Positions 1,400 through 45,195 of a stretch of DNA of 64,000 nt are shown here, in pieces. The first letter of the stretch is position 1. Each line of letters starts with the position of its first letter. The notes under the pieces are model-generated. The model saw only the letters and a list, made by a program, of their open reading frames with translations. It was not told where the DNA came from and searched no databases. The stretch is from a virus. The DNA lies in IMG/VR virus record IMGVR_UViG_3300025118_000005, positions 15,503 through 79,502 of that record; one strand, given 5' to 3'. The position numbers and the translations under genes were made by a program.

Positions 1400-1961
1400 G
1401 TTGCGGAAATTGGTGCGAAATCTCGTTTAGAGACTAGCAGTCTGGTAGCCGAAAGTGAATGCTCTGGGAAAACGTATCCATAACAAGGAGCAGGAGCGAA
1501 ACGATAGGTATCGGGCGGGGTTCGAATCCTCAACGCGACGACAATTTAGCATAGGTGACGGAACAAACGTCCGACAGAGGAAACGGCCTATGCGACAATT
1601 TAAGCTGACGACGGTCGGCTTAAGGGTATGGCTGAATATCCCTCCATCATAAGGGGAAAGGCATAGGGCCATGTGAGAGAGTGCAATCGTATGACTTGCA
1701 TGGTTCTAGTAAGCTGGAAACAAGAACTGTATTGTGCACTGGCTTTGTAGGTAATGCAGCAATCCTACTACCCATTAATTTTCGTGGTGCTGGATTACAG
1801 GCCATGATTAACAGACGCGCCTCAAACGGAAAGCAGGGAAGTATTCCACCTGTCGGCAAGAGAGGGAAGCCGTGGCGCGATAACTGAGAACTCACAATTT
1901 TTCCTGTGGTCGGTACAACCGTTAAAGAGATTGTAGGTACCAACGCCGAAGTCCGCCACGT
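1400..1961 (+). ncRNA. Array of four structured RNAs with tRNA-like ends
   Basis: Terminal stems 1400/1539, 1549/1593, 1624/1773, 1783/1960; GGTTCGAATCC T-loop at 1519-1529; AATTT linkers; no convincing ORF. Confidence 0.65.
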
Positions 1962-42958: not shown

Positions 42959-44449
42959 ATGTCAGATGTTAAAATCAATAGAGTAAACAGGAACTTTACG
43001 ATTAAAGTCCATTTATATTACGATGCTTCATCAAAAAATCGTGATTCTGACAGTAATCCTCGATTTTATTTAAAGCCCGTATCGTTATTAAATGTTGAAA
43101 AGGTAGCTTTCACAGATGACGGGGGGCGAAAAAATAATTATACTAAATATGGAAATAGATTTTGGAAGTGGAAGTCCGATGATACGCTATCTGACGCTCA
43201 GGTGGAAGCTATTTATAATAAAATTAAAGATAATTATCCATATGGACACATAGAAAATGATCTTGCCACAGAAAATAAATATATTCTTGACGTAAAGGAA
43301 AATAAAGCTTTTCAATCTTTTTATAAAACTTATTGGGAAAACCATGCAGATGAAATAAAACAACCGAAAACTGTTCACGAAGAACAAAAGGACTATCCTC
43401 ATCCTTACATATCGTTTATTTCTAACGAAATTATAACTTATAAATATACAGTTGGAGACGTGCCTGTCGTCCCAATTCAAACAGATTTAGCATATGATTA
43501 TGTTTCTGGAATAAATAATTATTATGCTCAGCCGCAAGATTATTCTTGTAACAGTGATGAGATATCTGTTTCTGTAGTAGGGAGTGTCTCTGGAGTAACA
43601 GGGTTTAACAATTATTTTGTGACTGAAGGCTTCTATGAATACCCACTTAAACTAAAAGCCAGCGGTAGACACAGATTTGATTTATGGAGCGGAGACGATC
43701 ATTACGGAGGAGCCACTTGGCCAACTGGTGTAGACGGTAATTACAGCGGCTTTAGATTTAGATTTAGCACTGGGCTTGAAGGGACTTTGGCAGGATTTAA
43801 TGATTATACAGATGGGATTTCTTATCACGAGGGTCCTGAGATAGGAAATTATTATGTAAAAGTATTAACTAAAACTCCCGCTTCTACGCCCGGGGACGAT
43901 TACCACCCCTATATTGATACTGGTAGCTCGTTAGGGTATGCTTTGAGCGGAAGCGGGGGAACCGCTACGGGAGTTAACTCTGGAGCGTATTCCCTTGGTT
44001 ACGATGAAGGCCCAGTGATAACACTAAGGAGAGAGTCTACATATTACTTTAATCAACAGAATGCCTCAAACGAGGGACACCCAATATATATTTCTACTGA
44101 TCCGTCAGGGGCTGGTTCCGATGTATATACGAGCGGAGTCTCTCATTTTCCGCAGGACCGAAAGTACATAAGCGGGGGCCAATATTTTACGACTTTTGAG
44201 GTCCCTTATAATGCCCCTAATACTTTATATTATTCTTGCGAGAATCACACTTATATGGGGGGTAAGATAAATATTATTGATTCTCCCGCACCTACTGGTT
44301 CTGGTCGTATACCGGGAGAAAGCATCGTCCTTAATTCTACCGGTACGGGAGATTTTGTTTTACGATACTATTCTCCAGAAGGCTCTGGAATGGGGGGATT
44401 AGCGCTAATGAAGAAGGACTGTGGAGCAAGTGCTATGTTCGGAACGTAA
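42959..44449 (+). CDS. Virion protein with cupredoxin-like domain
   Basis: TL.R..TY.F......GHP, VP..AP.TLYY.C..H..MGG. Confidence 0.6.
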   Translation: MSDVKINRVNRNFTIKVHLYYDASSKNRDSDSNPRFYLKPVSLLNVEKVAFTDDGGRKNNYTKYGNRFWKWKSDDTLSDAQVEAIYNKIKDNYPYGHIENDLATENKYILDVKENKAFQSFYKTYWENHADEIKQPKTVHEEQKDYPHPYISFISNEIITYKYTVGDVPVVPIQTDLAYDYVSGINNYYAQPQDYSCNSDEISVSVVGSVSGVTGFNNYFVTEGFYEYPLKLKASGRHRFDLWSGDDHYGGATWPTGVDGNYSGFRFRFSTGLEGTLAGFNDYTDGISYHEGPEIGNYYVKVLTKTPASTPGDDYHPYIDTGSSLGYALSGSGGTATGVNSGAYSLGYDEGPVITLRRESTYYFNQQNASNEGHPIYISTDPSGAGSDVYTSGVSHFPQDRKYISGGQYFTTFEVPYNAPNTLYYSCENHTYMGGKINIIDSPAPTGSGRIPGESIVLNSTGTGDFVLRYYSPEGSGMGGLALMKKDCGASAMFGT

Positions 44450-44456
44450 CTTTAAT

Positions 44457-44485
44457 TTGACTTAAAGAGGAAATGGTATTATAAT
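44457..44485 (+). promoter_or_regulatory. sigma70 promoter for the ribozyme transcript
   Basis: TTGACT(44457)-17-TATAAT(44480); predicted +1 about 44491-44492. Confidence 0.85.
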
Positions 44486-44490
44486 ATAAT

Positions 44491-44800
44491 AGATTTAAAA
44501 ATCGGCCTTATTGGGTGAATTCGGTGGAACTCTCTCGTAGACAATACCGAGCCAAGCTAGAGATGGTTTAAAGTTCTCTAGAAGGTGTAGAGACTAGACG
44601 GTGAGAACCAAACGATAATCCGTCCACGAGCGCCCAACACCGTAAAGGTGAAGATATAGTCCGAACTACATGGCGACATGTAGAAGCCGTAATTAAAAAA
44701 GCGACGATAACAAATTGGACTACGCGATTAGTGCAGTGTACTAACCATGGGTTATGTACCTCATGGCATAAGTAAACTAAATTGTGTGTCGGCTGAGTCT
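44491..44800 (+). ncRNA. Group I ribozyme, stand-alone and apparently circularly permuted
   Basis: P AATTCGGTGGAA, Q AATACCGAGC, R GTAGAGACTA, S AAGATATAGTCC; P3 TTGGGTG/CGCCCAA; P8 CACC/GGTG; P9 CTACATG-GCGA-CATGTAG; P1 and P2-5' found at the 3' end. Core identity is firm, permutation is inferred. Confidence 0.85.
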
Positions 44801-44805
44801 TAATT

Positions 44806-45195
44806 ATGGCAGCGAAGAAAAAAGTAACGGAAAAGAGTACGGCAAAAAAAGTCGAGAACCTGACGCAAACTGACGGAATGGTGAAGGGGGAGACCTCTGT
44901 TCCGTCATCTTTAGATCAGGTTTGGGGGGACGATGGAACATCAAAATATAAAACTTTAAATCTTGACGTATATGAACGAGTACTTAGTAACATGTCAAAA
45001 TCTGATTTAAAAGCGGAAGCTGTTAGAACAGGTTTATTGCCTATAGATAATATGGATCAATTAAGGATTAGGCTCATAAGAGAATTTAGGGCTCATGTCT
45101 CTTCCTATAAGAGGCCAACCGGCTTAAAAAGAGAGTCTGTTGATGATCCAAATTTAGATCCAGATGTTCGTAAAATTTTAAGCGAAGGCAAATAA
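44806..45195 (+). CDS. Hypothetical protein
   Basis: Starts 5 nt after the ribozyme terminal stem. Confidence 0.65.
   Translation: MAAKKKVTEKSTAKKVENLTQTDGMVKGETSVPSSLDQVWGDDGTSKYKTLNLDVYERVLSNMSKSDLKAEAVRTGLLPIDNMDQLRIRLIREFRAHVSSYKRPTGLKRESVDDPNLDPDVRKILSEGK

What the first reader, a model, noticed from the sequence alone, without database searches (positions are those of the whole stretch)
44457..44800. Stand-alone, naturally permuted group I intron predicted to make a ~52-nt RNA circle
Seen: a complete group I core (P3-P9, P/Q/R/S motifs, 44511-44717) in an intergenic gap, interrupting no gene, with a sigma70 promoter whose +1 (~44491) leaves only 20 nt before P3, too little for P1+P2. 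The missing parts are downstream of the putative omega-G (44717, or 44718). GCAT|AA (44766-71) pairs with TTGTGT (44782-87), giving the diagnostic U44769-G44784 wobble of P1. Immediately after, GTCGG-C-TGAGTCT (44788-800) pairs with the transcript 5' end AGATTTA-AAAA-TCGGC (44491-506), rebuilding P2 just before J2/3 and P3. The order is therefore 3'-half intron, 3' splice site, exon, 5' splice site, 5'-half intron, opened in L2. Established: this permuted intron-exon layout is how group I introns are engineered to circularise RNA, and natural permuted group II introns make circles. Inference: back-splicing gives a circle of 44718-44769 with junction GGCAU|GACUAC. I cannot tell whether natural phage examples are already catalogued. 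P10 looks weak.
Basis: partly seen in the sequence, partly recalled or inferred. Interest (0 to 1): 0.95.

Follow-up and report, generated by a model that had tools for sequence, protein, structure and literature searches.

The report
Guide-first permuted group I ribozyme
A marine phage carries a complete self-splicing-type (group I) RNA enzyme that interrupts no gene, has its own promoter, and has its cut site behind the catalytic core instead of in front of it, so it should cut its own transcript just ahead of the next gene and close a conserved 77-base RNA into a ring.

Summary
The core observation holds. Rfam finds a group I core (67.7 bits) in the 356-nt gap between a tail-fibre-like gene and a 129-aa ORF, directly behind an 11/12 sigma70-type promoter.

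I collected 16 further full-length syntenic homologues from uncultured phages. In most of them a promoter-like site is kept, and nothing upstream can form a conventional P1 or P2.

Its P1 (44766-71/44782-87) pairs in 59% of cells and keeps the U.G wobble in 2 of 17 sequences. Its outer "P2" helix pairs in 37%.

The real P1 is the guide UCGGCC (44502-07), which lies 3 nt before P3, paired with GGCU|GA (44791-96). This helix is 100% paired in 17 sequences, its G.U wobble is invariant, and two pairs covary. RNAalifold predicts it unprompted. A second subfamily keeps it with a flipped pair (GCCC/GGGU).

OmegaG is G44717, by homology to conventional relatives in capsid genes. The predicted circle is therefore 44718-44794, which is 77 nt rather than 52, and the intron is opened in L1, not L2.

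No RNA evidence for the junction could be obtained here. I found no published phage or bacterial example. Earlier notes of this scan describe the same family on other DNA.

The parts
44457..44485 (+). Sigma70-type promoter: -35 TTGACT at 44457-62, 17-nt spacer, -10 TATAAT at 44480-85. The inferred transcription start is about 44491-93.
   Evidence: 11 of 12 matches. Both hexamers are kept in L005 and L048 while the spacer diverges. A site scoring at least 9/12 that ends 7-18 nt before the guide is present in 11 of 17 family members.
44502..44507 (+). Internal guide sequence UCGGCC, the 3' strand of P1. G44504 is the wobble G. The 3-nt linker UUA (44508-10) follows, then P3.
   Evidence: Pairs with 44791-96. 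It is 100% paired in 17 sequences, G.U is 17/17, and two pairs covary. RNAalifold predicts the helix de novo.
44511..44683 (+). Group I catalytic core:
- P3 44511-17/44631-37
- P4 44521-26/44545-50
- P5 44531-33/44539-41
- P6 44551-53/44584-86
- P6a 44557-63/44575-81
- P7 44592-96/44657-61 (pseudoknot)
- P7.1 44597-601/44620-24
- P8 44638-41/44647-50
- P9 44666-72/44677-83, with a GCGA loop
   Evidence: Rfam 67.7 bits. Across 17 homologues the whole model is 94.9% paired against 35-39% for slid controls. 42 pairs show compensatory change, and 0 of 500 shuffles reach this.
44686..44705 (+). P9.1 hairpin (GCCGU/GCGAC) with an invariant loop AAUUAAAAAA, followed by the conserved GAUAACA.
   Evidence: Helix 11 has 3 of 5 pairs with compensatory change. 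The loop and GAUAACA are shared with conventional capsid-gene introns L166, L197 and L172.
44715..44717 (+). 3' splice site. U44715 and U44716 form P9.0 with A44664 and G44663. OmegaG is G44717.
   Evidence: The pairs G63.U16 (17/17) and A64-U15 (15/17) come. The position is homologous to the 3' splice sites ..AUUG|GUG and ..ACUG|AUG of L166 and L197. Their exon junctions align without a gap to intron-less capsid genes.
44718..44794 (+). The 'exon', which is the predicted 77-nt circle. Closing stem S1 is 44723-29/44780-86 and hairpin H2 is 44745-51/44760-66. The internal loop carries the conserved GCAGUGUACUAAC. The first bases, GACU, can form P10 with the guide region 44500-03.
   Evidence: S1 has 6 of 7 pairs and H2 has 7 of 7 pairs with compensatory change. 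Length is 75-80 nt in all 17 members. P10 is 85% paired with weak support. MFE is -22.5 kcal/mol, z -1.8.
44791..44796 (+). P1 target strand GGCU|GA. The predicted 5' splice site lies between U44794 and G44795, 11 nt before the start codon.
   Evidence: A second subfamily has GGGU|AA opposite the guide AUGCCC.
44806..45195 (+). Downstream 129-aa ORF (Lys-rich N-terminus, no Pfam or PHROG family). It would be released as the 3' fragment after the first step.
   Evidence: The same gene follows the element in the family members found. Of the 80 loci kept for this gene family, 14 carry the element (12 distinct) and the other 66 do not.

Best explanation
This is a stand-alone, naturally permuted ('guide-first') group I ribozyme gene.

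**Layout of the RNA.** A sigma70-type promoter starts the RNA about 10 nt before the internal guide sequence UCGGCC (44502-07). A P2-less catalytic core follows directly (P3-P9, P7.1, P9.1). It ends in P9.0 and omegaG at G44717.

**Where the target strand lies.** The strand that the guide recognises is not upstream. It lies 77 nt downstream, at GGCU|GA (44791-96), and forms P1 with the G44504.U44794 wobble.

**First step.** By ordinary group I chemistry, an external guanosine bound in P7 attacks after U44794. This releases the downstream RNA, which in this phage is the mRNA of the 129-aa gene with one extra G at its 5' end.

**Second step.** The new 3'-OH of U44794 attacks after omegaG. P10 (GACU 44718-21 with the guide region) and the closing stem S1, which holds the two ends together, help this step. 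The result joins U44794 to G44718.

**Products.** A 77-nt circular RNA (44718-44794), a free linear ribozyme of about 227 nt, and the downstream RNA.

**Shown here.** The core, the promoter, the absence of an upstream P1, the covarying guide/target helix with an invariant wobble, the position of omegaG, and the structured, length-constrained exon.

**Inferred.** The transcription start, catalysis itself, and the formation and role of the circle.
For: **Core.** It reaches the Rfam threshold (67.7 bits). Across 17 phage homologues it is under strong structural selection. These homologues share only 33% amino-acid identity in the upstream gene but about 79% nucleotide identity in the RNA. The model is 94.9% paired with 42 covarying pairs, and 0 of 500 shuffles reach this.

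**Promoter.** The hexamers are conserved while the spacer diverges. The upstream AT-rich hairpins that Rfam aligned as P1/P2 are not conserved. No guide-complementary site sits at a conserved upstream position, and 7 of 17 members have none within 200 nt.

**Guide/target helix.** It is 100% paired, the G.U is 17/17, and two pairs covary (C-G/U-A/U.G and G-C/A-U). Slid controls give 0-58% and 1 of 500 shuffles reaches it. RNAalifold finds it without prompting. L149 and L222 keep the same layout with guide AUGCCC and target GGGU|AA, a flipped pair with the wobble retained.

**OmegaG.** Its position is homologous to the 3' splice site of conventional relatives, checked against intron-less capsid genes. 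P9.0 is conserved.

**Exon.** Length is 75-80 nt in all members, with covarying stems.

**Stand-alone RNA gene.** In L088 an intrinsic terminator follows the target strand. In L149 the next gene is on the other strand.

[quoted passage not shown] It makes circles with P1 alone (PMC10457212).
Against: There is no biochemical or RNA evidence here. The RNA and DNA contigs I laid showed no joint, and contigs cannot show a rare junction.

P10 is only weakly supported (85% paired, 26 of 500 shuffles). In some members the promoter sits so close that the outer P10 pairs may not exist.

The covariation in P1 rests on few independent events. L052 and L068 are close to each other.

Exon sequence is not conserved between subfamilies (77 nt structured here, a 25-nt hairpin in L149). 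That argues against one shared function for the circle.

Six of 17 members have no strong sigma70-like site at the expected distance: 4 have only weaker or more distant sites and 2 have sites too close to be usable.
Confidence: 0.6

Rival explanations
1. Same guide-first architecture, but only the first step matters. The ribozyme is a GTP-dependent self-cleaving leader that cuts after U44794 to give the downstream mRNA a defined short 5' end. In this phage that end would read G+GAGU, which resembles a Shine-Dalgarno sequence. The circle is a by-product or is not formed.
For: In the main family the target strand always lies 10-50 nt before the start codon of the same 129-aa gene. Exon sequence is not conserved across subfamilies. 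P10 is weak.
Against: OmegaG and P9.0 are invariant or nearly so, yet they are needed only for the second step. The exon has a covarying closing stem that brings its two ends together, and its length is constrained to 75-80 nt. L088 has a terminator right after the target strand and L149 has no co-oriented downstream gene, so mRNA maturation cannot be the general role.
Confidence: 0.2
2. The RNA is a trans-acting ribozyme. Its 5'-terminal guide targets another phage or host RNA, which it cleaves or trans-splices. The cis target serves only to hold or release the guide.
For: A guide at the 5' end followed by the core, omegaG and a 3' tail is the layout of engineered trans-splicing ribozymes (PMC10457212). 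After self-processing, a free ribozyme with an exposed guide would remain.
Against: The guide has only 4-6 informative bases. It covaries with a cis site at a fixed distance, which a trans target would not require. No candidate target was identified.
Confidence: 0.07
3. It is a conventional group I intron in a read-through transcript from the tail-fibre-like gene, with P1 and P2 formed from upstream sequence as in the Rfam alignment.
For: Rfam aligns 44474-44493 to the P1 positions of the model. Read-through from upstream cannot be excluded.
Against: That stretch is the AT-rich -10 region. It is marked with non-canonical pairs, has no U.G, and is not conserved as a hairpin in L005 or L048. No upstream guide complement is conserved. 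The ORF frame downstream cannot extend upstream of 44797, and the flanking genes are complete in relatives that lack any intron.
Confidence: 0.03
4. It is a decaying relic of a mobile intron that lost its 5' part. It has no activity and no function.
For: It has no homing endonuclease gene and interrupts no gene. Related mobile introns are common in phage capsid and terminase genes.
Against: The RNA is about 79% identical between phages whose flanking protein is only 33% identical. There are 42 pairs with compensatory change, and the catalytic joints are invariant. A relic would not keep this.
Confidence: 0.03
5. One reading: P1 at 44766-71/44782-87, an end-to-end P2, opening in L2, and a 52-nt circle 44718-44769.
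For: The pairings can be drawn in this one sequence.
Against: Its P1 is 59% paired with the wobble kept in 2 of 17. Its outer P2 is 37% paired. UUGUGUG belongs to the covarying stem S1.
Confidence: 0.02

Closest known systems
[quoted passage not shown] 2023, PMC10457212)
   Same: The order of parts is identical: internal guide at the 5' end, ribozyme core, omegaG, the segment to be circularised, then the target site NNNNNU. P1 forms end to end within one molecule. P10 is optional.
   Different: STS is a laboratory design on an IC1 intron with inserts of kilobase size. The element here is natural, belongs to a small P2-less phage type with P7.1 and P9.1, and has a 75-80 nt structured non-coding insert and its own promoter.
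Permuted intron-exon (PIE) constructs (Puttaraju and Been 1992; T4 td and Anabaena; reviewed in PMC13580324)
   Same: The 3' part of the intron comes first, then the 3' splice site, the exon, the 5' splice site and the 5' part of the intron. Two ordinary transesterifications give a circular exon.
   Different: PIE constructs are opened in a peripheral loop (P6, P8 and others), and each half carries a substantial part of the fold. Here the break is in L1, so the '5' half' is only the two bases after the cut plus whatever lies downstream.
ND5-717 group I intron of corallimorpharian mitochondria (Chi et al. 2019, PMC6545197)
   Same: [quoted passage not shown]
   Different: There the gene is an ordinary split ND5 gene on a circular genome. 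The permutation arises at the transcript level from an 18-19 kb intron, and the spliced exons encode a protein. Here the permutation is written in the DNA of a linear phage locus, no gene is split, and the exon is a small non-coding RNA.
Circularly permuted group II ribozymes of bacteria (Roth et al. 2021, PMC8637638)
   Same: They are natural self-splicing ribozymes with reversed splice-site order. They release small circles (15-86 nt) and have no known biological role.
   Different: They are a different ribozyme class (group II, branching chemistry, about 900 nt). They are found in bacterial chromosomes and plasmids, not in phage structural-gene regions.
Conventional phage group I introns of the same sequence clade (capsid-gene introns L166, L197, L172; terminase intron of Vibrio phage VEN, MG545917)
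   Same: They share the core, P7.1, the P9.1 loop AAUUAAAAAA, GAUAACA and the omegaG context. VEN also lacks P2, and its guide lies 4 nt before P3.
   Different: They interrupt protein genes. Their P1 5' strand lies upstream, in the 5' exon. Some carry homing endonuclease genes. Their exons join into an open reading frame.
Lariat-capping (GIR1) ribozyme
   Same: It is a group I-derived ribozyme without a conventional upstream P1. It sits ahead of an ORF and acts at a site 3' of its core.
   Different: No Rfam GIR1 match appears even at E 10. Here P7, J8/7, a guide with a U.G wobble and omegaG are all of the ordinary splicing type. GIR1 is known only inside eukaryotic twin-ribozyme rDNA introns.

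Membership tests
Group I catalytic intron (Rfam RF00028) | Conserved core P3-P9 with the P3/P7 pseudoknot and the J8/7, J6/7 and J4/5 joints | tested here: met
   67.7 bits against a gathering score of 50. The helices are 95-100% paired across 17 homologues, with compensatory changes in P3, P4, P6a, P7.1, P8 and P9.
Group I catalytic intron (Rfam RF00028) | P1 formed by an internal guide and the 5' splice site, with a U.G wobble at the cut | tested here: met
   Guide 44502-07 pairs with 44791-96. G.U is 17/17 and the neighbouring pairs covary. The target strand, however, lies downstream of the core.
Group I catalytic intron (Rfam RF00028) | Terminal omegaG preceded by P9.0 | tested here: met
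   G44717 is invariant. P9.0 is G63.U16 (17/17) and A64-U15 (15/17). The position is homologous to the 3' splice sites of L166 and L197.
Group I catalytic intron (Rfam RF00028) | It is an intervening sequence: it interrupts a gene, and splicing joins two flanking exons into a linear functional RNA | tested here: not met
   It is intergenic. The flanking genes are complete in relatives without the element. There is no conserved upstream exon-guide pairing. So it has a group I ribozyme fold but is not an intron in the usual sense.
Group I catalytic intron (Rfam RF00028) | Guanosine-dependent self-splicing activity | not testable with these tools
   This needs in vitro transcription with Mg2+ and GTP.
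Permuted intron-exon / STS-type circularising group I RNA | The 3' splice site lies upstream of the 5' splice site on one transcript | tested here: met
   OmegaG is at 44717 and the 5' splice site follows 44794. The spacing is 75-80 nt in all 17 members.
Permuted intron-exon / STS-type circularising group I RNA | The transcript starts inside the permuted intron (here before the guide), not in an upstream exon | tested here: inconclusive
   A conserved promoter-like site ends 7-18 nt before the guide in 11 of 17 members. No 5' end data exist.
Permuted intron-exon / STS-type circularising group I RNA | A covalently closed circular exon is produced | not testable with these tools
   The one read-laying run returned contigs only, with no joint.
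Lariat-capping ribozyme (GIR1, RF01807) | A match to the family model, with a P15/P10/P2-P2.1 core in place of a guide-based P1 | tested here: not met
   No Rfam family other than RF00028 matches 44300-44950 at E up to 10. An ordinary guide/target P1 is present.
Allosteric (c-di-GMP-II riboswitch-controlled) group I ribozyme | A riboswitch aptamer fused upstream of the ribozyme | tested here: not met
   No riboswitch family matches. Only about 10 nt of RNA precede the guide.

The most novel reading that the evidence does not exclude
The conserved, tightly folded 75-80 nt ring is itself the product that selection keeps. It would be an exonuclease-resistant small circular RNA that these phages make during infection from a strong promoter, for example as a regulator or as a decoy for a host factor. 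If so, guide-first group I ribozymes would be a natural, widespread circular-RNA factory in phages, with several guide/target variants and ring sizes.
Probability: 0.3. Interest if true: 0.95.

Novelty: new variant of a known kind. Interest (0 to 1): 0.85.

Why it matters
Group I ribozymes are textbook introns. Outside the laboratory, the permuted order that yields circles is in print only for one giant coral mitochondrial intron and, in a different ribozyme class, for group II RNAs.

A domesticated, promoter-driven group I ribozyme family in phages would be new in several ways:
- It is conserved far better than its neighbouring genes.
- It has the same guide-first wiring that engineers arrived at in 2023 for circular RNA production.
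- It would show that evolution has reused the splicing chemistry for something other than removing an intron.
- It would add phages to the sources of natural circular RNA.
- It could supply compact scaffolds (about 230 nt) that already work as circularisers.

It is also directly testable with one in vitro transcription experiment.

Tried and rejected
Homologues came from the search for related loci and pattern scans instead.
- **Read laying** on three metatranscriptome runs and one DNA run gave contigs only and no joints. Most RNA cover was other introns sharing 44649-44684. This gives no verdict on expression or on the circle.
- **Loose-end pattern.** A viral-contig scan for the loose-end sequence seen before 44495 found nothing.
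- **First probe.** The 26-mer from P7-P9 found only an unrelated intron in a uracil-DNA-glycosylase-like gene (L003).
- **Genome-contig scan.** The scan with the J6/7-P7 motif returned mostly ordinary introns of candidate-phyla-radiation (CPR) bacteria and others. One truncated family member turned up in a 3.1-Mb assembly of unknown taxon. No host could be named.
- **Rfam on a rejoined sequence.** Tools take references only, and Infernal is not in the script box.
- **Ideas dropped.** A conventional P1 from hairpins 44450-67 or 44477-91 (not conserved). A tRNA-like exon (ARAGORN found none). An intron splitting the upstream gene, whose C-terminus would be the 18-codon frame after 44719 (the exon region evolves as RNA helices, not codons).
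- **Protein families.** Pfam and PHROGs gave nothing for the 129-aa protein.
- **Pseudoknot.** A proposed pairing of GUGCA 44731-35 with the H2 loop is only partly supported (63% and 94% for its two parts). RNAalifold prefers an extension of S1.

Full report
**What is at the locus**

The window is part of a 79.5-kb IMG/VR marine phage record, estimated about 48% complete. DNA runs holding it are marine and hydrothermal-vent metagenomes.

ORF 42959-44449 is tail-fibre-like (phrog_677). ORF 44806-45195 encodes 129 aa and matches no Pfam or PHROG family. Between them lies a 356-nt gap.

Rfam finds one group I intron core in the whole record, at 44470-44683, scoring 67.7 bits against a gathering score of 50. 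The best sigma70-type site in the 4 kb scanned is TTGACT-17-TATAAT at 44457-44485, with 11 of 12 matches. It overlaps the bases that Rfam forced into its P1 positions, and those pairs are flagged as non-canonical.

**Finding relatives**

Annotated phages hold only conventional relatives of the core, all inside genes:
- Vibrio phage VEN terminase, with a homing endonuclease
- Bacillus phage SP-15 recA
- Pseudoalteromonas phage H101

VEN is useful because its P1 (UGCUGGU|...GCCAGCA) is followed after 4 nt by P3, with no P2.

Laying contigs of three RNA runs and one DNA run gave no joints. It did show that relatives' similarity starts at about 44495-44504.

A pattern scan of metagenome contigs, a scan with the upstream protein, and a profile scan with the 129-aa protein family then uncovered true syntenic homologues. 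The element sits directly upstream of the same 129-aa gene in 17 distinct full-length loci: the window, L005, L048, L049, L053, L087, L054, L117, L081, L052, L056, L088, L068, L082, L178, L220 and L205. There are also two truncated copies (L036, L327).

Of the 80 loci kept for that gene family, 14 carry the element (12 distinct) and the other 66 do not.

In L005 the upstream protein is only 33% identical to ours, while the RNA is about 79% identical. L005's core scores 68.3 bits, although a first search with default filters missed it.

**What is upstream**

In L005 and L048 the two promoter hexamers are kept in place while the spacer diverges.

| Promoter-like site | Members |
|---|---|
| At least 9/12, ending 7-18 nt before the guide | 11 of 17 |
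| Weaker or more distant | 4 |
| Too close to be usable | 2 |

The AT-rich hairpins upstream in the window (44450-67 and 44477-91) are not conserved. A four-base site able to pair with the guide occurs upstream only at scattered positions. It is absent within 200 nt in 7 of 17 members. A conventional upstream P1/P2 is therefore not supported.

**The real P1**

In all members the hexamer U-Y-G-R-C-C lies exactly 3 nt before P3 (window 44502-07). It pairs with G-G-Y-U-R-A (window 44791-96), which lies 10-50 nt before the start codon.

On alignment A3 (17 sequences, 358 columns) the numbers are:
- 100% of cells paired.
- The G.U wobble is present in 17 of 17 sequences.
- The flanking pairs read C-G/U-A/U.G at one position and G-C/A-U at another.
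- Slid controls pair in 0-58% of cells.
- 1 of 500 shuffles reaches the observed values.

RNAalifold predicts the same helix unprompted.

An invariant wobble flanked by covarying Watson-Crick pairs is the signature of a group I P1, not of a mere closing stem.

A second subfamily has the same layout with a different pair:
- L222 and L149 element 2: guide AUGCCC, a 3-nt linker, P3, and target GGGU|AA downstream.
- L149 element 1: guide AGGCCC and target GGGU|C.

Here the pair next to the wobble is flipped to C-G and the wobble is retained.

|---|---|---|---|
| P1: 44766-71/44782-87 | 59% | U.G kept in 2 of 17 | 64 |
| Outer 'P2': 44491-97/44794-800 | 37% | Not supported | 65 |
| Inner 'P2': 44502-06/44788-92 | 95% | No compensatory change; a three-base-shifted register of the true P1 | 65 |

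UUGUGUG (44780-86) is the 3' strand of stem S1, which pairs with 44723-29. Six of its seven pairs show compensatory change. For example, CGCGAUU/AAUUGUG in the window becomes CAGUAUU/AAUACUG in L005.

**The 3' splice site**

The closest conventional relatives share the P9.1 loop AAUUAAAAAA and the GAUAACA motif. They sit in major capsid genes (L166, L197, L172).

Their P1 (GGAU|, guide GUCC) fixes the 5' splice site. Joining the exons at ..AUUG|GUG gives a protein that aligns without a gap to intron-less capsid genes. The homologous G in the window is G44717.

It is preceded by P9.0: G44663.U44716 in 17/17 and A44664-U44715 in 15/17.

The first exon bases, GACU (44718-21), can pair with the guide region 44500-03 as P10. 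The two inner pairs hold in 17/17 and the outer two in 11-13 of 17. Some covariation is present, but statistical support is weak.

**The piece in between**

The segment 44718-44794 is 77 nt, and 75-80 nt in every member. It is folded:
- S1 brings its two ends together, leaving tails of 5 and 8 nt that carry the P10 and P1 strands.
- Hairpin H2 (44745-51/44760-66) covaries in all seven pairs.
- An internal loop keeps GCAGUGUACUAAC.

This is the geometry one would design for ring closure.

In L149 element 2 the corresponding piece is a 25-nt hairpin, and in element 1 it is 12-15 nt. So the sequence of the piece is not shared across subfamilies.

**Mechanism and context**

The layout is guide, core, omegaG, insert, target. 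[quoted passage not shown] It is a PIE arrangement opened in L1.

The expected products are:
- a circle of 44718-44794,
- a free ribozyme of about 227 nt,
- the downstream RNA carrying the added G.

In the window the downstream RNA is the mRNA of the 129-aa gene. In L088 an intrinsic terminator follows the target, and in L149 the next gene is convergent. The element therefore behaves as a stand-alone RNA gene, and maturation of one particular mRNA cannot be its general role.

None of the catalysis has been observed. My single read-laying run returned contigs without joints.

**Literature and earlier notes**

Full-text searches found several related cases:
- natural permuted group II ribozymes (PMC8637638),
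- one natural back-spliced group I intron in coral mitochondria, described there as the first such case (PMC6545197),
- engineered PIE and STS systems (PMC13580324, PMC10457212).

They found no phage or bacterial stand-alone permuted group I ribozyme. The library is incomplete, so this is absence in what I could search.

After my model was fixed I looked up the scan's earlier notes. Several follow-ups on other genomes describe the same guide-first family with a 76-nt ring. One reports an exact head-to-tail joint in environmental RNA for a 72-nt relative. These are unchecked AI notes. They agree with my model but are not independent evidence.

**Verdict**

| Item | Verdict |
|---|---|
| Observation | Partly confirmed |
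| Guide-first architecture | About 0.85-0.9 |
| Two-step reaction giving the 77-nt circle | About 0.6 |
| Novelty | New natural variant of a known ribozyme class; high interest |

Noticed in passing
window 1603-1778 (+): manA RNA motif (Rfam RF01745, 72.7 bits against a gathering score of 55.2), in the early-gene part of the window.
   Followed up: no
L149:5442-5999 (+): Two group I cores lie in tandem in one intergenic gap (Rfam 100.9 and 86.2 bits). Both appear guide-first. Element 1 has guide AGGCCC (5479-84) with GGGU|C (5708-12). Element 2 has guide AUGCCC (5757-62) with GGGU|AA (5994-99). The predicted rings are only about 12-15 nt and 25 nt. The next gene lies on the opposite strand.
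   Followed up: partly
L088:1385-1415 (+): An intrinsic terminator (13-bp stem and a T run) begins just after the aligned element, 10 nt downstream of the predicted cut. In this member the ribozyme looks like a self-contained RNA gene.
   Followed up: partly
window 44795-44808: The bases after the predicted cut are GAGUCUUAAUU-AUG. Addition of the external G would create 5'-GGAGU, with 8 nt between the GGAG and the AUG. That is Shine-Dalgarno-like, in a leader with no other such site. L049 and L088 share GAGU. Most members instead have AAGGA further downstream.
   Followed up: no
window 44659-44664 with 44715-44720: GUCCGA and UUGGAC are complementary in all 17 members (RNAalifold). This pairing would compete with P7. 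It may be no more than P9.0 plus an artefact of pseudoknot-free folding, or it may be an alternative inactive fold.
   Followed up: no
L166:6842-7391, L197:7064-7733, L172:4237-4901 (-): The closest conventional relatives of the ribozyme interrupt major capsid genes near the N-terminus, at the motif ..EDLMD|[VM]I.DISP. They have upstream P1 and P2. This points to the likely ancestry of the permuted form.
   Followed up: partly
L005:5638-5865: Rfam's default filters missed this 68.3-bit group I core when 18.8 kb were searched together. They found it in an 800-nt search. Negative gathering-threshold scans of loci should be read with care.
   Followed up: yes
window 44806-45195 and loci L049-L128: The 129-aa Lys-rich protein is widespread in uncultured phages: 273 viral stretches encode a relative, and 53 protein clusters match at E up to 1e-5. 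It has no known family. In element-free loci such as L002 it follows a gene that I did not search against any protein library, and a terminator.
   Followed up: partly
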